DNA of 63,937 bases, filler included, from Candidatus Woesearchaeota archaeon (GTDB taxonomy: Archaea > Nanobdellota > Nanobdellia > Woesearchaeales > J072): assembly GCA_003695265.1 (NCBI GenBank). It is 8 parts of 8 records of this genome, joined end to end, with 100 filler letters (N's around TTAATTAATTAA, not from the genome) between each part and the next. Parts side by side here need not be neighbours in the genome. Positions count along the whole stretch, not along the records: positions 15,336 to 24,145 come from RFII01000001.1; 7 more parts are not named here. One strand, 5' to 3'. Shown here in pieces: positions 15,336 to 24,145 of this stretch. Both the position numbers and the translations under genes were made by a program. The stretch's first letter is position 1. Each line of letters opens with the position of its first letter. The notes under the pieces are model-generated. The model saw only the letters and a program-made list of their open reading frames with translations, was not told the origin of the DNA and did not search any database.

Positions 15336-15337
15336 TA

Positions 15338-15724
15338 CCAAGAATAATATATGAAGACTTAGAAACAGGAGAAATAATAACTCCTGAAAAACTGTTAGGA
15401 GAAGAAGAAAAAACTACAAAAGAAGAACGAGTAATAGGCAATAAAACACAAGAGAGCGCAGGAGAAACAGTTTCTTTTAATATTGAAGCAGAAAAATACT
15501 TGTTCAGTCCAAGAACAATCACAGTAAAGGAGGGTGATAGGGTAAAGCTTCACCTAAAGAGCAAGGATATAGAGCACACATTTGAATTGGAAGAGTATAA
15601 CATCAGTGAAATAATTCCCGCTGACGATGAAATAACTGTTGATTTCGTGGCAGATAAAAAGGGAGAGTTTGTTTTCAGATCAAAAACGCATAAGGCAATG
15701 AAGGGAAAGCTTATAGTTGAATAA
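15338..15724 (+). CDS. Cupredoxin-fold protein, 5' truncated
   Basis: Frame open from the contig start. FSPRTITVKEGDRV...DIEHTF...FVADKKGEFVFRSKTHKAMKGKLIVE. Confidence 0.75.
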   Translation, partial: PRIIYEDLETGEIITPEKLLGEEEKTTKEERVIGNKTQESAGETVSFNIEAEKYLFSPRTITVKEGDRVKLHLKSKDIEHTFELEEYNISEIIPADDEITVDFVADKKGEFVFRSKTHKAMKGKLIVE

Positions 15725-15779
15725 AACTCAAACTTTAAATAGCATTTGTTGTTTCTTAATAATTCTGGAGGTGTTTGGT

Positions 15780-16037
15780 ATGGCAGACGAGCCAAAAAAA
15801 GTAAAGGTTTACTCAACTCCGACGTGCCCTTACTGCATACAGCTCAAGGAGTTCTTGAAAGAGAACAACATTGAGTTTGAGGACATTAACGTTGCAGAAG
15901 ACCAGGAAGCAGCTAAGGAGATGATTGAGAAGAGCGGCCAGATGGGAGTTCCGGTAGCAGACATAAACGGAACAATCATTGTCGGCTTTGACAGGGCTAA
16001 AGTAAAAGAGGCTCTTGGCTTAAATGAGGATAACTAA
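15780..16037 (+). CDS. Glutaredoxin-like (NrdH/YruB-type) redoxin
   Basis: YSTPTCPYC and SGQMGVPV motifs; GAGGTG SD before ATG 15780. Confidence 0.92.
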   Translation: MADEPKKVKVYSTPTCPYCIQLKEFLKENNIEFEDINVAEDQEAAKEMIEKSGQMGVPVADINGTIIVGFDRAKVKEALGLNEDN

Positions 16038-16695
16038 GTATGCCCAGTCTTGTTTTCTTCTGGAAACAGACAAGTTAAGGATGCTTATTGACCCTGGAAA
16101 CCTTTGTTATAGCGAGAGCTTCAGCCCAGAAGACTTTGGGAAAATTGATGTTCTGCTTTTGACGCACACTCATGATGATCACTGCTTTCCTAAGGCTGTT
16201 AAGGAGATAAATGAAAACAATCCTGAAATGCGGATTCTGTGCAATGACGAAGTAGCTGCAAAGCTGAAAGAGGAGGCATCAATAAAAAATGCAACAATAC
16301 TTAAAGCTGGCGACAAGAAAGAGTTTGGAAGGATCAGCATTGAAGCTGTAAAGTCAGAACATGGCAAGCACCCGACAGCAGATAAAGTGCCCAAAGTCCT
16401 CGGATTTCTTATCAATGATGGTAGTAACATAATTTACCATCCCGGAGACACGCGCTACTTTGAGGGAATGCCGAAAGCAGACATTGCTTTGCTGCCAATA
16501 TGCGGAGACTTTGTGGTGATGAATCCAGAGGATGTTTATAAGTACTGGCTTGAGGCAAAGCCAAAGCTGATTATCCCAATGCATTATGATTCTCAAATTC
16601 ACCCAACTGGCACAAAAGCGTTTGAAATAGTCATGTCCCGGCTAACAGGAATAAAGTACAAAATCCTGAAAAACGGTGAGTCTGTTGAAGTATAA
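16024..16695 (+). CDS. Metallo-beta-lactamase-fold hydrolase (UPF0173-like)
   Basis: THTHDDH, YHPGDT and IPMHY motifs. Confidence 0.88.
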   Translation: MRITKYAQSCFLLETDKLRMLIDPGNLCYSESFSPEDFGKIDVLLLTHTHDDHCFPKAVKEINENNPEMRILCNDEVAAKLKEEASIKNATILKAGDKKEFGRISIEAVKSEHGKHPTADKVPKVLGFLINDGSNIIYHPGDTRYFEGMPKADIALLPICGDFVVMNPEDVYKYWLEAKPKLIIPMHYDSQIHPTGTKAFEIVMSRLTGIKYKILKNGESVEV

Positions 16696-17293
16696 AGCAG
16701 TAATTTTTGACTGCGGCGGCGTTTTGGTTCCTAACATAGATGACAACATGCACCACCTTAACAAATTGTTTGACTGCACGCAAAAAGAGGTTATCAGGAC
16801 TTATTTCAAGCACTTGCATGCTTTTGAAAAAGGCAGGATAAGCAAAAAAGAGTTCTGGGAATTCTTTAATAAGAGGTTTGACAAGAGAGTTCCTGTTGAG
16901 AAGATTGAGAAAAGGCTTTTTAAAGGGATAAAAATGTATCCGATTATGAGAAGGCTGCTGAAAGCATTAAAAAAAGATTATATTATTGCATTACTAACAA
17001 ATAACACGCAGTGGCTTTACGACCTTGACAAGAGGGAGGATTTTCTTAAATATTTCAGCAAGAAACATGTTGTGTCTTCGCACGAAGTTGGAATGAGAAA
17101 GCCTGAATTGAGGATATACAGGCTAATGCTGAAAAGGCTTGGCCTGAAGCCAGCTGAAGCAGTATTCATAGATGACCTTTACGTAAATGTCAAGGCAGCA
17201 AAAAAGGTTGGGATAGAAGCGATAAGGTGCAAAAGCCCCGAGCAAGTTGTTCGCGACCTAAAAAAAATAGGTGTTCTTAAGAAAAATGTTTAA
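16676..17293 (+). CDS. HAD-superfamily phosphatase
   Basis: FDCGGVL, LLTNN, KP and FIDD motifs. Confidence 0.88.
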   Translation: MSLLKYKAVIFDCGGVLVPNIDDNMHHLNKLFDCTQKEVIRTYFKHLHAFEKGRISKKEFWEFFNKRFDKRVPVEKIEKRLFKGIKMYPIMRRLLKALKKDYIIALLTNNTQWLYDLDKREDFLKYFSKKHVVSSHEVGMRKPELRIYRLMLKRLGLKPAEAVFIDDLYVNVKAAKKVGIEAIRCKSPEQVVRDLKKIGVLKKNV

Positions 17294-18071
17294 CCACAAC
17301 ATTGACCCTGTGCTTTTCCATTTAGGCCCTTTAGAGATAAGGTATTATGGGATAATCTACGCTCTCGGCTTTATAATAGCATATTTCTTCCTTAAAAGAA
17401 TGGTCGCTGAGCAAAAGATAAACCTGACTAAAGATGACGTGGGAGACTTAATATTCTGGATTGCTGTCGGCGTCGTTATCGGCGCTAGGTTTTTCCATGT
17501 TTTTGTTTACAACGCCGGCTATTATTTAAAGAATCCTGCAGAAATAATCATGGTGTGGCATGGCGGCTTGTCATTTCACGGCGGCCTTGTAGGGGCAATA
17601 ATTGCTGCGTGGGTTTTCTGCAGGAAAAAGAAAGTTTCACTTCTTGAGATAGCTGACATAATTGTAATTCCAGCAGCCTTGGCGCTCAGCCTTGGCAGAA
17701 TAGCTAATTTCATAAACGCGGAAATTGTTGGAAAAGTAACTGACTTGCCTTGGTGCGTTAATTTTCCAGGCTATGAGGGCTGTAGGCATCCGTCCCAGAT
17801 TTATGAGGCTTTCAAGAACTTCTTTATATTCCTTGTTCTTTGGAGCATAAGAAACTTGAAGCTTGCAAAAGGAAGCGTGTTCTCAATCTTCTTAATATTG
17901 TACGGCCTTTTAAGAACTCTTGCTGAATTCGTGAAAGACCAGCCCATAATCTTCGCAAAGCTTACTATGGGCCAATTGCTTAGCATTCCAATGTTCTTTT
18001 TAGGCCTGTTTTTGTTACTGCACTTTAATAAAATTGAGCTCAAAATTGGCAGGGTAAAAATAAAATTTTAA
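17286..18071 (+). CDS. lgt: Prolipoprotein diacylglyceryl transferase
   Basis: IRYYG, GARFFHV, WHGGLSFHGG, GRIANFINAE, RHPSQIYE, YGLLR...EF, TMGQLLS. Confidence 0.93.
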   Translation: MFNHNIDPVLFHLGPLEIRYYGIIYALGFIIAYFFLKRMVAEQKINLTKDDVGDLIFWIAVGVVIGARFFHVFVYNAGYYLKNPAEIIMVWHGGLSFHGGLVGAIIAAWVFCRKKKVSLLEIADIIVIPAALALSLGRIANFINAEIVGKVTDLPWCVNFPGYEGCRHPSQIYEAFKNFFIFLVLWSIRNLKLAKGSVFSIFLILYGLLRTLAEFVKDQPIIFAKLTMGQLLSIPMFFLGLFLLLHFNKIELKIGRVKIKF

Positions 18072-18073
18072 AT

Positions 18074-19006
18074 ATGATTAATGTAAAAAAGCTCCTAATA
18101 ATAATTGAGGTGGTTAAAATCAAAAAAATAATTTTGATAGGCTCTTTGTTTGTTTTAATACTATTAATAATAAGCTGTGGAAACAATGACGAAAATTCTG
18201 GCATGGAGGATGTGACAGCACAAGCAGTTAAAACAGTTGATAATCAAGAGCTTCAGTGCCCTGAATGCGAGCCATGCCAAGAATGCGAGGTTTGCGAGCC
18301 TCAAAAAGAATGCCCTGAATGCGAGCCATGCCCTAACTTCAGTGAGAATCCTATTGATATAAAATTGACAAAAGTAAGTCTTGTCAAGCCTGCTGAGAGC
18401 TCAAACTCAAAAAAAACAGTCTACAAGCTCACGCAAGATGAGTACAACGCCTTGGAAGCGGCAACGTTTTACTTTGAGCCAAGGTGCGATGAGACAGACA
18501 ATAAACTGATCATTGAGTTTGACAACAAAGAAGTTTACAATGATGTTCCTGAATGCAGCAAAATTAATGAGGTAAATGTAGATACAGACTTATTGTATTA
18601 TGGCACAAACATCATCAAGTTCAAGACAGCGCCCTCAGAAGATTATAGGATAACTAACATGGAGCTTAAATCAGAGTTTAATGACGGCACTTCAGACACG
18701 CAAAAAATTTATGATGTAAGATTTGAGAGGTCTGGAGAGGGAAATGAGGAAGAAGTTGAGTCAATAAGTGATGTAGAGATAAGAAATTATAAGGAATATG
18801 AGATTGATCTAAGCAGCAAGGACGTTGAGGACGGCTTAGTATTACAGTTCACAGGAGCAGAGAGGGACGGCAATATTATTGTTTACGCAAACGACGAATT
18901 AGTTTATGAAGGAAAAATAAGCAGAAGAACAAATAAGATATATGTTCCAAAAGAATATTTGGAAGAAGGAACAAATTATTTCACGTTTGTTGGTGTTGGG
19001 AAGTAA
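18074..19006 (+). CDS. Putative lipoprotein with a CxxC-repeat stalk and two related beta domains
   Basis: KK + hydrophobic stretch + IISC-G lipobox-like site; CPECEPC repeats; two ...LxxGTN.. domains. Confidence 0.7.
   Translation: MINVKKLLIIIEVVKIKKIILIGSLFVLILLIISCGNNDENSGMEDVTAQAVKTVDNQELQCPECEPCQECEVCEPQKECPECEPCPNFSENPIDIKLTKVSLVKPAESSNSKKTVYKLTQDEYNALEAATFYFEPRCDETDNKLIIEFDNKEVYNDVPECSKINEVNVDTDLLYYGTNIIKFKTAPSEDYRITNMELKSEFNDGTSDTQKIYDVRFERSGEGNEEEVESISDVEIRNYKEYEIDLSSKDVEDGLVLQFTGAERDGNIIVYANDELVYEGKISRRTNKIYVPKEYLEEGTNYFTFVGVGK
18257..18332 (+). repeat. Exact 22-nt direct repeat encoding CPECEPC
   Basis: TGCCCTGAATGCGAGCCATGCC at 18257-18278 and 18311-18332. Confidence 0.9.
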
Positions 19007-19047
19007 GCACTTTTTCTTTTTTTGTATTCTTCATATTTTTATCTTTT

Positions 19048-20169
19048 TTATGCGCTTTTGAAAGAAAGAGTTTCATCCAAAGCCATTAGCGCTGGCAACG
19101 GGTCTTTTGGGTCAAAAAAAACTAGGACATCAACATCACCCATATCTTCAGGCGAACAATCACCGTTTGCCAAGCATTTGAGCCAACGATTCTCCATTAA
19201 CCACCTAGCACCTATTTTATGTTTTTTCCCAGCCAAAGATGATATGTCATTTCCGGTTAAGTCATAATATATGATTGCCGGCAGGTTAAGCCCTGCAACA
19301 GTGTCAAGCATGTTGTTGGCGCTTGTCCTAAAATTAACCTCTAAGAAATAATATTTTCCTGTTTCTGCGTGCTGTTTCAAGTTTATGTCCAAAGCGCCTT
19401 TAAACCCGAGCATTTCAGTAATTCTCAAGGAAGGCACTAAAAGCTCGTCTTCCCATATTGTTTCGACTAAAGCTCCCAAAGAGCCTGGAACTGAGTTTTT
19501 TACTGCGTAAAGCTTTCTTAACATTCCTGCTATTAATGGGCCTTGTGTTGATAAGTAAGTGTGAACCTCAACATTAGACCTGACTCCTCCTGGAATGTAC
19601 TGCTGGAGAACCATCTCGCCATACTTTTCTAAGAGTTGCTGTCTTATCCGCTCGAATTCTTCTGCGCTCTGAAAAACGTAGAAGTCGCTTTTGCTTGTGC
19701 CGAGACTGTTAACAGGCTTGGCCAAGACTGGAAAATCAATTCTTCTTTCTTCGCTTAAATATTGTGATTGTGGAACAAGAAATCCGGCTTTTCTGCCTAA
19801 GTTTATTAGATTCTGTTTTTTTATCAGGTCGCATAATCTTTCTCTTGCCAAAGGAACATGATAATAAGGCTCCAATTCCTCTGCATGATGCTGGCAAAAC
19901 ACTACGTAATTGTCTCCAGTGGCAAACAAAACGCCTTTTTCATCCTGAGTTTTTCCGAATTCGACCAGCTTTTCCAATAAGCCTTCTTCACTCTCAGCAA
20001 AATGCGCTTCTTCCAAGTATTTTGAGTAAGCAGCATGGGGAAACCTGCCTTGCTGGTGAAACCCTACAACAGGAATCCCTTCATAACCAAGGCTTCTTAC
20101 TACGCCGAGCGCGTTTGCGCCGTACAGCCCTAAAACAACTGCTTTTGATTTCATTTTATAATGTCGCAT
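19048..20169 (-). CDS. ATP-grasp carboxylate-amine ligase (D-aspartate-ligase-like family)
   Basis: NALGVVRSLG, FPVLAKP, VLQQYIPG and YYFLEVNFR motifs. Confidence 0.85.
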   Translation of the reverse strand: MRHYKMKSKAVVLGLYGANALGVVRSLGYEGIPVVGFHQQGRFPHAAYSKYLEEAHFAESEEGLLEKLVEFGKTQDEKGVLFATGDNYVVFCQHHAEELEPYYHVPLARERLCDLIKKQNLINLGRKAGFLVPQSQYLSEERRIDFPVLAKPVNSLGTSKSDFYVFQSAEEFERIRQQLLEKYGEMVLQQYIPGGVRSNVEVHTYLSTQGPLIAGMLRKLYAVKNSVPGSLGALVETIWEDELLVPSLRITEMLGFKGALDINLKQHAETGKYYFLEVNFRTSANNMLDTVAGLNLPAIIYYDLTGNDISSLAGKKHKIGARWLMENRWLKCLANGDCSPEDMGDVDVLVFFDPKDPLPALMALDETLSFKSA

Positions 20170-20810
20170 GCTTTGTTACAGCCACAGAAGTGAGGGTAAA
20201 AGTTTCCCTTGATTGTTTGTGTGTGCAGCTTGTACGCTTCCCCATACTTTGCTCCTATCATTGAGCCTCTCAGCCTTCCCTTGTGCTCTATGTAATCAAA
20301 ATAGTAATTTCCAAAGCTTTTTCCTTCTACTTGGGTTTTGTGCGCTTCTAAAGCCCTGAATTTTATGCTGTGCTCCTCTGTAACGTCAAGGATTATGTCA
20401 GGGTAAGTTATCATCGCAGACGTTTCAAGCTCTAAAATTTTCTTTGTCAGCCAGCCGTTTTTTCCGTGGCTAGCGAATTCCAAGGCATTTAAGGATATTT
20501 GAAAAACAGCCTTGTGATCAGGATGGTAATCATTCGCCTGGAGTACTGCAATGTCTGGCTTGAAGTCCCTTATTGTCTCAATAAGGTTTTTGTGAAGCTT
20601 CTGCGCTTGCTTAATCTCAAACTCTGGAATTCCTAAAACAACGCCTCTCGCGCCTATTATGTCGCAACTTTTCTTAAACTCCGCTGCCCTTTTCTTGTTT
20701 CCTGTAAAGCATATAACAAAATTTCTGCCGCCTTCTAAGAAGTTCTTGTGCAGTAGGCCTGCGCAATTAACCTCATCATCAGGATGAGCAACAAAAGCTA
20801 TTATGTTCAT
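20151..20810 (-). CDS. PIG-L family N-deacetylase (BshB1/MshB-like)
   Basis: AHPDDE and DYHPDH metal motifs; K.RALEAHKTQ; YGEAY. Confidence 0.88.
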   Translation of the reverse strand: MNIIAFVAHPDDEVNCAGLLHKNFLEGGRNFVICFTGNKKRAAEFKKSCDIIGARGVVLGIPEFEIKQAQKLHKNLIETIRDFKPDIAVLQANDYHPDHKAVFQISLNALEFASHGKNGWLTKKILELETSAMITYPDIILDVTEEHSIKFRALEAHKTQVEGKSFGNYYFDYIEHKGRLRGSMIGAKYGEAYKLHTQTIKGNFYPHFCGCNKACDIIK

Positions 20811-20811
20811 T

Positions 20812-22032
20812 TTATTCTGCCCTATTTTGTTTTTTTAAGAGAGAGTAATACAAGTCTTCATACATTGAGCAAACTTTTGCCCTGTCAAACCTTTGCCTGG
20901 CAATTCTTTTGCCTTCTTCTCCCATTTCGCGCATTTTCTCTGGATTCTGCGCTAGGACAAGCATATAATGAGCAAATGCTGCTATATCTTTGGGGTCAGC
21001 AAGGTATCCTGAAACGCCGCTTTCCACAACCTCAGGAATTCCGCCCCTGTTTGATGCTATCACAGCATTTCCCAAATGCATTGCTTCCAGGCTTACCAAT
21101 CCGAAAGACTCCTTAAGAGAGGGAAGCACAAGAACATTGCCGACCTGGTGATAATCAGCAACTCTCTCATGAGGGACCATTCCTGTAAAAATGACTTGTT
21201 CTTTTAGCCCGTACTTTTTTGCTTTTGTCTCAGCTACATGCTTTTCAGGCCCATCTCCCACAAAAAGCAGCCTTGTTCCTTTCATGCCGCGCTCAACCGC
21301 ATTATTGTACGCGTCAACAATCGTTCCAACGTTCTTGACAGGCCTGAAATTTGATACATGGTAGAATACAAGTTCATCCAACCCTATTCCAAGCCTTTCA
21401 CGCAATTCCTTGTTGATATGGTCATCTTCAGGCCTTTGAAAGTTTTCTTCATTAATGAAATTTGGTATCACAACGCCGTAATCATCAAGGTCGAACACAG
21501 CTCTTGCCTCATCCTGAAGGCTCTTTGAAACAAAGGTTATGCCGTCAGCCTGAGATAGCCTCAGCTCAAGACCTGGAACCATGACAGGCCTGTAGCCGTT
21601 CACGCTCACGTCTGTGCCTACGTTTGAGATAATAGCGACAGGGTTTCTTTTCTGTCCTGTAAGTTTTCCGCGCTTCATATCCCTGCGGAGAATGTCTCGT
21701 GCGTCAATAACAGCTTCGCCGTGAGTAACGCCGTAATGCGCATGAAGGACGTCAATGCTTAAGTCGTTAGCAAGCATTCTTATAGTTCCTGGAAATGTTA
21801 GGGCTGTCGGCGGTGTTTTAAAAGATCCGTAGGTTATGTCTGGTATTGGATGTATTTTGAGGAGTTTTTCTTCCTCTTTAGAAAGGTATGTTCCTGGATA
21901 GCTTACTATATGGACGTCATGACCCCTTCTAGCAAGCTCTAAAGCTAATTCAGTGCCCATAATTCCGCTTCCTCCAATGTGCGGCCTTGCGTACAGCACT
22001 TTTACTATTGTTAATGGCTCGTTTTTTTCCAT
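20812..22032 (-). CDS. GT4 glycosyltransferase, BshA (GlcNAc-malate synthase)-like
   Basis: GGSGIMGTELA, FKTPP, HAHY, GTDV, PNFI, HVSNFRPVKN and LPSLKESFGLVSLEAM match BshA-specific motifs. Confidence 0.85.
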   Translation of the reverse strand: MEKNEPLTIVKVLYARPHIGGSGIMGTELALELARRGHDVHIVSYPGTYLSKEEEKLLKIHPIPDITYGSFKTPPTALTFPGTIRMLANDLSIDVLHAHYGVTHGEAVIDARDILRRDMKRGKLTGQKRNPVAIISNVGTDVSVNGYRPVMVPGLELRLSQADGITFVSKSLQDEARAVFDLDDYGVVIPNFINEENFQRPEDDHINKELRERLGIGLDELVFYHVSNFRPVKNVGTIVDAYNNAVERGMKGTRLLFVGDGPEKHVAETKAKKYGLKEQVIFTGMVPHERVADYHQVGNVLVLPSLKESFGLVSLEAMHLGNAVIASNRGGIPEVVESGVSGYLADPKDIAAFAHYMLVLAQNPEKMREMGEEGKRIARQRFDRAKVCSMYEDLYYSLLKKQNRAE

Positions 22033-22075
22033 AAAAAAACACCAAAGATATAAGCAACCATAAGGTAATCAAAGG

Positions 22076-22124
22076 AAATATTTAAATATTTTAAAGAATA
22101 TTTTTTTTAAAAAAGTACTTTTTT
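22076..22124. promoter_or_regulatory. Divergent promoter region with two perfect 16-bp palindromes
   Basis: AAATATTTAAATATTT (22076-22091, contains a TATA-like box) and AAAAAAGTACTTTTTT (22109-22124), between the bshA-like gene and the Lrp-like gene. Confidence 0.45.
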
Positions 22125-22151
22125 GTCTAATTATTACTTTTATACAAAAAA

Positions 22152-23102
22152 ATGAAAAGAAAAATTAGAAAATTATTATTTGAGCTATCCAATAATTGCA
22201 GGATTTCGACAAAACAGCTTGGCAAAAAGATAAATTCCAGCCAGCAATCAGCATCTTACCTTGTCAGGCAGTTGGAAAAAAAGAGAAAAATAAAGTATTA
22301 TACTTTAGTGGATCCTGTGAAATTAGGTTATGTAAATATAATTGTTGGGTTTGATTATCTGAATTTTGAAAGAGAGGCTAAAAAACAAGTAATAGATAAA
22401 CTGTTGGCAACTGAGCAGGTGATAAGGGTTGAGGAGGCAACACAAGGAGTCGACCTTGTCGTCGAGTACTGCGCAAGCAATTTGTCATCATTCAATAAGA
22501 CGCACTCAGACATAATTTACAAATTCAGGAAGATCCTGCAAACAAAATTCATTCTCACAGTCATTGTAAAACATATTTACGCAAAAAATTATTTGGTGAA
22601 CGGAAGGAATGACACCGACCTTATAATATGCGGGGACAGGGAAACTAGAAAGCTGTCAGAGAACGATATGAAAGTATTAAGGGAATTAATAGCAAACCCT
22701 GTCGAGACTTTCAGCTCAATGTCCAAAAATACAAAGGTTTCTGTGAAGTCAATAATCAAATCAAAAAAGCGCCTTGAAAAATTTTCTGTTATAAGGGGCT
22801 ACAGCTGCTTCATTGACGAACCCAAGTTTGGGATACGTCGCTACTTCATATTCTTAAACCTTGCAGGCTACGGTGTTGAGGAGATTCGAAAGCTGCAGGA
22901 ATTTGCCTTGACTAATAAGAACATTGTTGAAATGGTAAAGACAATAGGCAATTATCAAATAATGCTTATAGTGGAAGAATTAAATAAAACAGAGTTGATA
23001 AAAGAGTTGAGATCGCAGTTCCCTGTAGAAAAATACTTTGTGGTTGAGGTTGACAAGATTCACCTTTTAAGGTATTTCCCATTAGAAGCAATTAATATAT
23101 AG
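22152..23102 (+). CDS. Lrp/AsnC-family regulator with duplicated HTH+RAM architecture
   Basis: Two Lrp-like halves (ELSNNCRIS...DPVKLGY; DMKVLREL...KRLEK...IGNYQIML). Confidence 0.8.
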   Translation: MKRKIRKLLFELSNNCRISTKQLGKKINSSQQSASYLVRQLEKKRKIKYYTLVDPVKLGYVNIIVGFDYLNFEREAKKQVIDKLLATEQVIRVEEATQGVDLVVEYCASNLSSFNKTHSDIIYKFRKILQTKFILTVIVKHIYAKNYLVNGRNDTDLIICGDRETRKLSENDMKVLRELIANPVETFSSMSKNTKVSVKSIIKSKKRLEKFSVIRGYSCFIDEPKFGIRRYFIFLNLAGYGVEEIRKLQEFALTNKNIVEMVKTIGNYQIMLIVEELNKTELIKELRSQFPVEKYFVVEVDKIHLLRYFPLEAINI

Positions 23103-23174
23103 CTCGAATAATATATTAAGAAACCTAAAAATTCTTATAAATGATTTAATCCTAAAAAGTTTTTAAAAGTTGGG

Positions 23175-23597
23175 GTGGTTCACATGAAAAAAGACTTAGC
23201 GCCGTTCTTCCTGCGCATTGGCCTTGGCATTTGGCTTGTTGTCCTTAGCTTAAAGTTTCTTTTCAAGGCAAAGGTGATTGCCCTTGCAGCAAACATTGTT
23301 GCAGAAATGGGCGTTCCTTTAGGAGTGTCAAGAATATTGATGATAATAGCGTCATGGGTTGGTGTCGTTCTGGGAATAATGTTTTTGCTAGGCTTCTTGA
23401 CAAGGATTGCGGCCGTGCTTCTGGGCTTGGCAATGCTTTTCAGCATATTCGTTCTGAACTGGTTTCTGCCAGCAGCGCTTATGGGGCCGTGGGGCGGCTT
23501 TGTCCTGAAAGACATTGTCATCCTTGGTGCGAGCCTGAGCATGCTTTTCACAGGAGCTGGCTGGCTGAGCCTTGACGAGCTGCTGAAAAGCGTTTAA
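23175..23597 (+). CDS. DoxX-family membrane protein
   Basis: FLRIGLG, LGFLTRIAA, LKDIVILG and GAGWLSLD motifs. Confidence 0.85.
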   Translation: MVHMKKDLAPFFLRIGLGIWLVVLSLKFLFKAKVIALAANIVAEMGVPLGVSRILMIIASWVGVVLGIMFLLGFLTRIAAVLLGLAMLFSIFVLNWFLPAALMGPWGGFVLKDIVILGASLSMLFTGAGWLSLDELLKSV

Positions 23598-23651
23598 GAC
23601 GAAAAAAACAGTAATCTTTATATATTAGTTATTATTAAAAAGTAACAACAT

Positions 23652-24145
23652 ATGGCTCTCTCAAATAAACTTTCAAGTAAACTCAGGCTGTTTTTTGCGT
23701 TTGTTCTAGTGTTGGGATTATTCACTGTTATTGCGCCGAAAGCAGAATCATTAGGCAGAAGCGAGTACACGCCTTGCTGGGAGGGCAGGACAAGGCTGAG
23801 CATGCCTTATGAGCATACTCCTTTTTGGAGCGGCCGAGTCAGGGTTTTAATGCCTCCAGAGTATTATCCAAGAACAGACCCTGTTTTTCTTCTGCCGAGA
23901 GGGCCAGAATATATTCCACAGGTTGACCCAAAATTCACTTTAGAGGACATTCAAAGAAGAAGGGGAGCTGTAAAGTGCTATGAATGCGGCTATGAAGACG
24001 AATATTACAGGAAAGGATATTTTTATGATGACGTTTATCCGCATAGGTTTTACATTGTCAACACGAAAAACGACAGCAGGGTCGGCCACGGCTATTTTGT
24101 GAGCCCATCCAGAGTTCTGAACAACAGGAACCTTATCCACAGCTA
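23652..24145 (+). CDS. Secreted hypothetical protein with four 16-aa repeats, 3' truncated
   Basis: Signal peptide; EYTPCWEGRTRLSMPY / EHTPFWSGRVRVLMPP / EYYPRTDPVFLLPRGP / EYIPQVDPKFTLEDIQ. Confidence 0.6.

What the first reader, a model, noticed from the sequence alone, without database searches (positions are those of the whole stretch)
19048..22032. Bacillithiol-like operon with an ATP-grasp ligase in place of BshC: candidate new low-molecular-weight thiol or amino-sugar conjugate pathway
Seen: three tightly coupled genes (1-nt gap, then overlapping or adjacent). They encode a GT4 enzyme with BshA-specific motifs (GGSG..TEL, F..PP, HAHY, GTD, SNFRPVK, ESFGL), a PIG-L deacetylase (AHPDDE, HPDH) and a D-aspartate-ligase-like ATP-grasp enzyme. 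Known: bacillithiol is made by BshA, BshB and BshC, and mycothiol by MshA, MshB and MshC. In both, the last step ligates cysteine to the freed glucosamine amine, and neither ligase is ATP-grasp. ATP-grasp enzymes make amide bonds via acyl phosphates, which is the chemistry needed here. The BshA TLHGTD motif reads SNVGTD, so the donor or acceptor may differ. Inference: a third route to an acyl-glucosaminyl metabolite (thiol or otherwise) in a reduced-genome archaeon. A divergent Lrp-type regulator and a DoxX gene flank it, and a glutaredoxin is on the same contig.
Basis: partly seen in the sequence, partly recalled or inferred. Interest (0 to 1): 0.85.

Follow-up and report, generated by a model that had tools for sequence, protein, structure and literature searches.

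The report
Bacillithiol-like archaeal operon with swappable ligase
A tiny archaeon carries a conserved three-gene operon that likely puts an amino sugar onto a small organic acid, likely strips its acetyl group and likely adds an amino acid in its place; this would follow the assembly logic of the bacterial antioxidant bacillithiol, but the last enzyme is unrelated and the product is unknown.

Summary
Three coupled genes encode a GT4 just over the BshA cut-off, a PIG-L deacetylase with intact zinc ligands and an ATP-grasp ligase. No bshC was found in this 94.6%-complete genome.

The cassette is rare but conserved. The ligase clade occurs in 6 of 401 genomes of the order, each time beside the deacetylase. 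It often has a divergent Lrp regulator and sits among unrelated housekeeping genes, not in glycan clusters.

Two slots swap. The transferase can be BshA-like, another GT4 or GpgS-like. In one relative, a predicted BshC-like protein replaces the ATP-grasp.

Best reading (0.5): a soluble N-aminoacyl-glucosaminyl glycoside of a small acid.

A thiol product is unproven (about 0.18). No BSH reductase, bacilliredoxin or S-transferase was found, and no route to malate or cysteine. DoxX and glutaredoxin are not conserved neighbours. This copy also lacks the BshA catalytic His. Lipid or surface-glycan tailoring stays open (0.25).

It works like the bacillithiol pathway but is not a member. The scan reported the same cassette before on other DNA (e1-1425734).

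The parts
20812..22032 (-). BshA-like GT4 retaining glycosyltransferase, 406 aa; keeps the residues matching S. aureus BshA T120, N171, K209, E280, E288 but has Val138 for His118
   Evidence: TIGR03999 291.5 > 273.7; best PDB hits are BshA structures 5d00, 6d9t, 3mbo, E 1e-56 to 1e-51; residue table; residue roles from PMC10361700 passages
20151..20810 (-). PIG-L/LmbE zinc de-N-acetylase (or amidase), 219 aa; H9, D11, D12, R41, E44, H99 invariant in 17 cassette copies, H96 nearly so
   Evidence: PF02585; below BshB1/BshB2 cut-offs; alignment; match to 2ixd and 6p2t; cassette-specific clade, SH-aLRT 99
19048..20154 (-). ATP-grasp carboxylate-amine ligase, likely 368 aa from Met6; ATGA overlap with the deacetylase stop
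   Evidence: 34 close relatives at 38-100% identity, its own record included; K118, K151, E277, N279, R281 invariant in 32 rows (their ATP-grasp roles are recalled); model and fold; own clade, support 99
22152..23102 (+). Divergent tandem Lrp/AsnC-type regulator, 316 aa; likely part of the unit
   Evidence: Pfam and NCBIfam; homologues beside the cassette in L020, L021, L023, L025, L060, L082; these group apart from the genome's two other double-Lrp paralogues
22033..22151 (.). 119-nt AT-rich divergent intergenic region; presumed promoters
   Evidence: Sequence; no convincing shared operator in 7 aligned regions

Best explanation
The operon likely makes a small soluble sugar conjugate: the GT4 likely transfers N-acetylglucosamine from UDP-GlcNAc onto a small hydroxy acid (malate is the best guess for BshA-like copies), the PIG-L enzyme likely removes the acetyl group, and the ATP-grasp likely activates an amino acid as an acyl phosphate and couples it to the freed amine. 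Shown: gene identity, coupling, conservation, the folds, intact deacetylase zinc ligands and invariant ATP-grasp residues, and no bshC found. Inferred: donor, acceptor, reaction order, the acyl group and the function (stress protectant, redox buffer or solute). The Lrp-type regulator would fit amino-acid sensing (family knowledge, recalled). Second PIG-L copies in some loci could act as recycling amidases, as Mca and Bca do. Cysteine is one candidate acyl group within this model, not the expected one.
For: (1) The core is ligase plus deacetylase. All 6 of 401 order genomes with the ligase clade have the clade deacetylase adjacent, and they come from six different families. (2) 9 of 10 informative loci keep the order GT, deacetylase(s), ligase on one strand. 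(3) Flanks are unrelated: 0 of 36 flanking ORFs that I picked from 11 loci hit a flippase or glycosyltransferase family. Distant ligases of the same order sit on separate branches, and at least 6 of 13 have glycan-cluster neighbours. (4) The closest named families for the alternative transferases act on small acids: BshA-like in 5 of 10 loci, GpgS-like in L020 and L060 (182 and 116 bits, under the 262 cut-off). (5) Slot swap in G669: BshA (288 > 273.7), orphan P0263, then two deacetylases nested in this clade. P0263 matches BshC-family clusters by predicted structure, TM 0.76-0.85. (6) No strongly hydrophobic stretch in the three enzymes. (7) glmS with an adjacent nucleotidyltransferase is in this genome. 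(8) GAR synthetase, an ATP-grasp that acylates a sugar amine (recalled), is among the fold matches (Z 21.4); a shared fold shows no function.
Against: No malate route was found in G000: no MDH, malic enzyme, class I fumarase or class II fumarase motif, and no 2-hydroxyacid dehydrogenase at E 1e-10. Substrates would have to be imported. The BshA score is borderline: the archaeal copies scanned score 260-330, a typical BshA (P0117) 506. His118, reported essential in S. aureus BshA, is Val here. Four of 10 loci use GT4s that are not BshA. BshA-like genes also occur without deacetylase or ligase (G655, G665) and between other glycosyltransferases (G140). The wider ligase family is fused to GT4, NodB deacetylase and GNAT domains, which points to glycans. 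The BshC-like call for P0263 rests on the Atlas alone; Pfam misses it. The closed genome G470 has no glmS over cut-off.
Confidence: 0.5

Rival explanations
1. Sub-case of the best model: the ligase adds cysteine, so the product is bacillithiol or a close thiol analogue and the ATP-grasp is a non-orthologous BshC.
For: BshA cut-off met; predicted BshC-like protein in the same slot in G669; paired PIG-L copies in L021, L022, L034, L060, L084 recall BshB1/BshB2 and MshB/Mca (PMC5790435 passages); MsrB (SelR) beside one locus.
Against: No YpdA, Brx or DinB/Bst over cut-off in 0 of 12 genomes each; no glyoxalase in G000; no PALP-family cysteine synthase in G000; DoxX and Grx not conserved. P0263's nearest Atlas clusters are unnamed, divergent BshC-like groups, so cysteine specificity cannot be transferred. 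Caveat: Brx rang in only 1 of 14 control genomes and YpdA passed cut-off in 3, so their absence is weak evidence.
Confidence: 0.18
2. The same three reactions tailor a membrane lipid head group or a surface glycan: add GlcNAc, deacetylate, aminoacylate.
For: Family-wide fusions and contexts point to glycans. A separate, widespread PIG-L plus GT4 pair in this order has GlcNAc-phosphatidylglycerol synthase as its best hit, far under cut-off. BshA-like genes occur next to other GTs in G140 and G655. An exchangeable GT is typical of surface variation (inference).
Against: Stand-alone cassette with its own regulator among housekeeping genes; ligase clade separate from the glycan-cluster ligases; the best-named transferase relatives use small acids; no strongly hydrophobic stretch, which is weak because many lipid GT4s are peripheral.
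Confidence: 0.25
3. Reverse chemistry: the ligase activates a carboxylate of the aglycone (for example malate C4, the analogue of the aspartate beta-carboxyl) and adds an amine, while deacetylation only sets the charge of a compatible-solute-like glycoside.
For: D-Asp ligase uses beta-aspartyl phosphate (PMC4155827 passage); an ATP-grasp domain amidates a glycan carboxylate in Cj1438 (PMC11800379 passages); GpgS-like transferases in two loci; BshA-like GT kept alone with the Lrp in G665.
Against: The ligase tracks with the deacetylase (11 of 12 loci), not with a given transferase or acceptor, which points to the freed amine as its substrate; a BshC-like protein in the same slot points the same way.
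Confidence: 0.13
4. This copy is decaying or has a changed donor, so no BSH-like product is made here.
For: His118 replaced in the 5-member subclade; two members also lose ESFG; the BshA-like gene is frameshifted in L025/L032; partial cassettes in G655 and G665.
Against: All three ORFs are intact and coupled here; the other tested BshA residues are kept; the L023 member of the subclade also keeps a full cassette.
Confidence: 0.07

Closest known systems
Bacillithiol biosynthesis (BshA GT4, BshB1/B2 PIG-L deacetylases, BshC)
   Same: BshA-type GT4 over the curated cut-off; PIG-L with the same zinc ligands; sometimes two PIG-L paralogues; a BshC-like protein can hold the third slot (G669).
   Different: Third enzyme is an ATP-grasp; deacetylase is below BshB cut-offs and forms its own clade; His118 is Val; GT is exchangeable; no YpdA, Brx or Bst found; product unknown.
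Mycothiol biosynthesis (MshA, MshB/Mca, MshC, MshD)
   Same: Glycosylate, deacetylate, re-acylate logic; PIG-L fold.
   Different: GT scores 86 against a MshA cut-off of 462; a single full CysRS-family match and no MshC paralogue.
D-aspartate ligase AslA/Aslfm and COG3919-type carboxylate-amine ligases (COG number recalled)
   Same: ATP-grasp fold; automatic names on some homologues; nearest Atlas clusters are 'carboxylate-amine ligase'.
   Different: No aspartate racemase in 5 genomes; three distant rows labelled D-aspartate ligase fall outside the clade; partner genes are sugar enzymes.
Glucosyl-3-phosphoglycerate synthase (GpgS) compatible-solute pathways
   Same: GpgS-like GT-A enzymes fill the transferase slot in L020 and L060.
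   Different: Both are under the family cut-off; known pathways need no deacetylase or ligase (recalled).
Glycan-amidating ATP-grasp enzymes in capsule clusters (e.g. Cj1438 C-terminal domain)
   Same: ATP-grasp acting on a sugar conjugate; distant relatives of this ligase sit in polysaccharide clusters.
   Different: No flippase or extra GTs among the flanks scanned; different ligase branch.

Membership tests
BshA (TIGR03999) | Score over the curated cut-off | tested here: met
   291.5 vs 273.7; borderline, since a typical BshA scores 506
BshA (TIGR03999) | T120, K209, E280, E288 (essential) and N171 | tested here: met
   T140, K233, E308, E316, N191 by alignment to 6d9t (roles)
BshA (TIGR03999) | His118 (essential) | tested here: not met
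   Val138; 26 of 31 clade members keep His
BshA (TIGR03999) | Forms GlcNAc-malate | not testable with these tools
   Needs an assay
PIG-L/LmbE deacetylases | Zinc ligands matching His12, Asp15, His113 | tested here: met
   H9, D12, H99 (ligands)
BshB1 / BshB2 equivalogs | Score over the curated cut-off | tested here: not met
   78 vs 182.5 and 45 vs 195
Bacillithiol pathway | bshC in the genome | tested here: not met
   PF10079 none in G000 or in the closed genome G401/G470; divergent P0263 profile none in G000. G000 is 94.6% complete and PF10079 misses divergent forms
Bacillithiol pathway | BSH-using partners YpdA, Brx, Bst | tested here: inconclusive
   0 of 12 genomes over cut-off for each, but these partners are patchy among BSH makers in the controls
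Bacillithiol pathway | Product is Cys-GlcN-malate | not testable with these tools
   Needs chemistry
Mycothiol pathway | MshA over cut-off and a CysRS paralogue MshC | tested here: not met
ATP-grasp superfamily | Fold and invariant Lys/Lys/Glu-x-Asn residues | tested here: met
D-aspartate ligase (AslA/Aslfm) | Orthology to Aslfm | tested here: inconclusive
   No characterised sequence was at hand; automatic labels fall inside and outside the clade
D-aspartate ligase (AslA/Aslfm) | Aspartate racemase as D-Asp source | tested here: not met
   PF01177 in 0 of 5 cassette genomes
Surface-polysaccharide tailoring clusters | Flippase and several GTs nearby | tested here: not met
   0 of 36 chosen flanking ORFs; unlinked glycan genes could still be the target
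BshC fold (for P0263 in G669) | Structural or profile match to BshC | tested here: inconclusive
   Atlas TM 0.76-0.85 to clusters carrying PF10079; no Pfam or PDB sequence hit; my own model failed

The most novel reading that the evidence does not exclude
Symbiotic-type Woesearchaeales archaea make bacillithiol or a new family of cysteinyl-glucosaminyl thiols with an ATP-grasp cysteine ligase that stands in for BshC, on a modular cassette whose aglycone varies with the transferase.
Probability: 0.18. Interest if true: 0.85.

Novelty: new variant of a known kind. Interest (0 to 1): 0.57.

Why it matters
The cassette gives three small soluble enzymes that can be reconstituted in a tube, for an undescribed amino-sugar conjugate in archaea with very small genomes. 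Its natural swaps (three kinds of transferase; ATP-grasp versus BshC-like ligase) show which step each slot performs. If the acyl group is cysteine, it would be a third enzymatic route to the cysteinyl-glucosamine core. It would also offer a tractable stand-in for BshC, whose reaction had not been reconstituted as of a 2018 review (PMC5790435), and a 2020 review says BSH had not been detected in archaea (PMC7278568). If not cysteine, it still names a substrate class for a large unassigned ligase family.

Tried and rejected
Phmmer of the ligase against PDB sequences: 0 hits; the profile found only weak biotin-carboxylase-type hits. The fold searches rank PurK, 2pn1, PylC, PurT and L-amino acid ligases nearly tied, so they give no substrate.

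My AlphaFold model of P0263 from 3 sequences failed (pLDDT 32), so I ran no fold search with it.

PF10079 was found in 0 of 201 phylum genomes. I do not read this as absence, because the profile misses P0263.

DoxX, glutaredoxin, MBL, HAD, Lgt and the 310-aa ORF were rejected as parts: no tblastn hit in 19 loci.

Operator search: only AT-richness in 7 aligned intergenic regions. The sigma-70 scan does not suit an archaeon.

Expression: no RNA holder listed.

The careful ligase tree did not finish; all trees are quick IQ-TREE runs with SH-aLRT only. I did not run test_one_clade, so no donor or order of events is claimed. The GT tree does not resolve whether the archaeal clade is sister to typical BshA.

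Complex prediction was not used; no binding is claimed.

The BshA structure paper PMC5954418 is not held, so the malate-contact residues could not be read from source.
Full report
OBSERVATION. The window is a string of contigs of one 1.06-Mb genome bin (103 contigs, 94.6% complete). The finding lies on contig C68 (window 15336-24145). On the minus strand run a 406-aa GT4 (20812-22032), a 219-aa PIG-L protein (20151-20810) and an ATP-grasp protein (19048 to 20154, likely 368 aa from Met6). They are joined by a 1-nt gap and an ATGA overlap. A tandem Lrp-type gene diverges 119 nt upstream. Named relatives are Woesearchaeota/Nanoarchaeota records, and the closed genome G470 is of the same order.

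THE THREE ENZYMES. The GT4 passes the BshA equivalog cut-off (291.5 vs 273.7; next family 108), and its best solved relatives are BshA structures. The pass is borderline: the archaeal copies scanned score 260-330, while a typical BshA scores 506. Of five residues reported essential in S. aureus BshA (H118, T120, K209, E280, E288; passages of PMC10361700), four are kept and His118 is Val138. Among 31 clade GTs the position is His in 26, Arg in 4 and Val in 1; the five non-His rows form one subclade (support 97; I left the typical-BshA rows P0117 and P0118 out of the script's count of 33). The deacetylase keeps the zinc ligands, falls under the BshB1/B2 cut-offs and belongs to a cassette-specific clade (support 99). 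The ligase has weak profile hits only, but a confident model (pLDDT 92) aligns with PurK, PylC, PurT, L-amino acid ligases and GAR synthetase (Z 21-25). Its 'D-aspartate ligase' label is automatic; no racemase was found in 5 cassette genomes.

CONSERVATION. Scans with a 32-row ligase alignment gave 16 loci, 12 distinct after I dropped four duplicates (L027, L031, L032, L033). A PIG-L gene is nearby in 11 of 12 and a glycosyltransferase in 10 of 12; the misses are 1.5-1.6-kb contigs. Nine of the 10 keep the order GT, deacetylase(s), ligase on one strand. In 401 genomes drawn from the order, the ligase clade occurs in 6 (E < 1e-140) plus one intermediate (G661), the deacetylase clade in 7 plus G661, and the BshA-like GT in 8. 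Scores of members used to build the profiles are circular; the adjacency is not. The six ligase genomes belong to six families, so the cassette is patchy. The Lrp recurs beside 4 of the 12 loci and beside L060 and L082, and these group apart from the genome's other double-Lrp proteins. DoxX and glutaredoxin recur in 0 of 19 loci. Of 36 flanking ORFs that I chose from 11 loci, none hit a flippase or glycosyltransferase family; one locus has a nucleotidyltransferase and a glucosidase nearby.

TWO SLOTS SWAP. The transferase is BshA-like in 5 of 10 loci (one frameshifted), another GT4 in 4, and a GT-A-fold GpgS-like enzyme in L020, and also in L060. L020's ligase lies in the same branch as this window's (support 98). 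The ligase slot swaps too. G669 carries BshA (288 bits), a 450-aa orphan (P0263), two deacetylases that nest inside the cassette clade (support 97) and a C39-like peptidase. The ESM Atlas matches P0263 to BshC-family clusters (TM 0.76-0.85). This is one source of predicted models; Pfam and PDB sequence searches miss it and my own model failed. It suggests the slot is 'amide ligase for the freed amine'. It does not fix cysteine, because the nearest clusters are unnamed, divergent groups. It also shows that PF10079 negatives are weak, so I searched with the P0263 profile as well: nothing in G000 or 10 other genomes.

RESULTS AGAINST A THIOL OR AGAINST MALATE. No YpdA, bacilliredoxin or DinB/Bst passed cut-off in 12 genomes, though these are patchy even in the controls. 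G000 has no glyoxalase, PALP cysteine synthase, MDH, malic enzyme, fumarase or 2-hydroxyacid dehydrogenase at the thresholds used. It has a single CysRS and glmS with an adjacent nucleotidyltransferase. BshA-like genes without deacetylase or ligase exist in G655 and G665 (98-99% complete) and between two other GTs in G140. The wider ligase family is tied to glycans: fusions to GT4, NodB deacetylase and GNAT domains, and glycan-type neighbours in at least 6 of 13 distant loci. Those ligases lie on other branches.

MECHANISM. Best model (0.5): GlcNAc is transferred to a small hydroxy acid, deacetylated, then N-acylated with an amino acid through an acyl phosphate, giving a soluble conjugate under Lrp control. 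Genes, folds, catalytic residues and linkage are shown; substrates, order and purpose are inferred. The cysteine sub-case gets 0.18 within that. Rivals: lipid or surface-glycan tailoring 0.25; amidation of the aglycone carboxylate 0.13 (precedents); a decaying copy 0.07.

COMPARISON AND NOVELTY. It works like the bacillithiol and mycothiol routes but fails membership: no bshC or mshC found, BshB cut-offs not met, His118 absent. Full-text searches found no paper with ATP-grasp + PIG-L + glycosyltransferase, with a six-term amino-sugar ligase query or with Woesearchaeota + bacillithiol. The six papers with bacillithiol + ATP-grasp were seen as a listing; passages of two do not describe this trio. 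The library lacks most subscription journals. I recall a 2009 comparative-genomics survey of amidoligases (Iyer and colleagues) that may have predicted sugar-aminoacylating ATP-grasp operons; I did not read it. Papers seen as passages only: PMC7278568, PMC2922099, PMC6282198, PMC5790435, PMC10361700, PMC11800379, PMC4155827. No supplements were read; Data Set S1 of PMC6282198 may bear on bshA/bshB genomes lacking bshC. Earlier AI notes of this scan describe the same cassette in another genome and similar trios elsewhere; these are leads, not support. The background tally of 190 of 401 includes eight genomes flagged unpublished (G703, G537, G640, G670, G488, G614, G556, G700); they may also count among the 401. 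No other claim rests on them.

VERDICT. A real, rare, modular, uncharacterised cassette: a new variant of a known biosynthetic logic, easy to test, with the thiol reading possible but unproven. Interest 0.57.

Noticed in passing
window 17271-19006 (+): A bacterial-type prolipoprotein diacylglyceryl transferase (PF01790, 258 bits) directly followed by a 310-aa orphan with a hydrophobic N-terminus ending in a lipobox-like Cys and Cys-Pro-Glu repeats; unusual for an archaeon (judgement from recall).
   Followed up: no
L117:3447-5221 (G000:C75): A second, ligase-free PIG-L + GT4 pair; best GT hit GlcNAc-phosphatidylglycerol synthase, 129 vs cut-off 480. PIG-L matches occur in 190 of 401 order genomes, with a GT4 beside them in 15 of 22 sampled loci: a candidate widespread glucosaminyl-lipid pathway.
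   Followed up: partly
L084:2906-7484 (G669:C22): BshA, predicted BshC-like orphan P0263, two PIG-L genes and a C39-like peptidase in one run, next to a trehalose synthase-like gene in two ORFs; a candidate for real bacillithiol synthesis in this order.
   Followed up: partly
P0122, P0125, P0127, P0130, P0133, P0135, P0139: Unnamed 1240-1360-aa proteins with three tandem ATP-grasp matches, among the nearest relatives of the ligase clade; possibly small peptide assembly lines. No context available.
   Followed up: partly
L025:2529-3702 and L032:4158-5331: The BshA-like gene is split into two frames at the same place in two records, with deacetylase, ligase and Lrp intact.
   Followed up: no
L029:866-1504: A GNAT acetyltransferase directly after the clade ligase, reminiscent of the final MshD step (recalled); contig too short to see more.
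   Followed up: no
L020:664-1068: A 134-aa ORF with no Pfam or NCBIfam hit between the GpgS-like transferase and the deacetylase.
   Followed up: partly
L025 and L026 record titles: Titled Methanosarcinales, but the same contigs belong to G561 and G416, placed in the window's own order.
   Followed up: no
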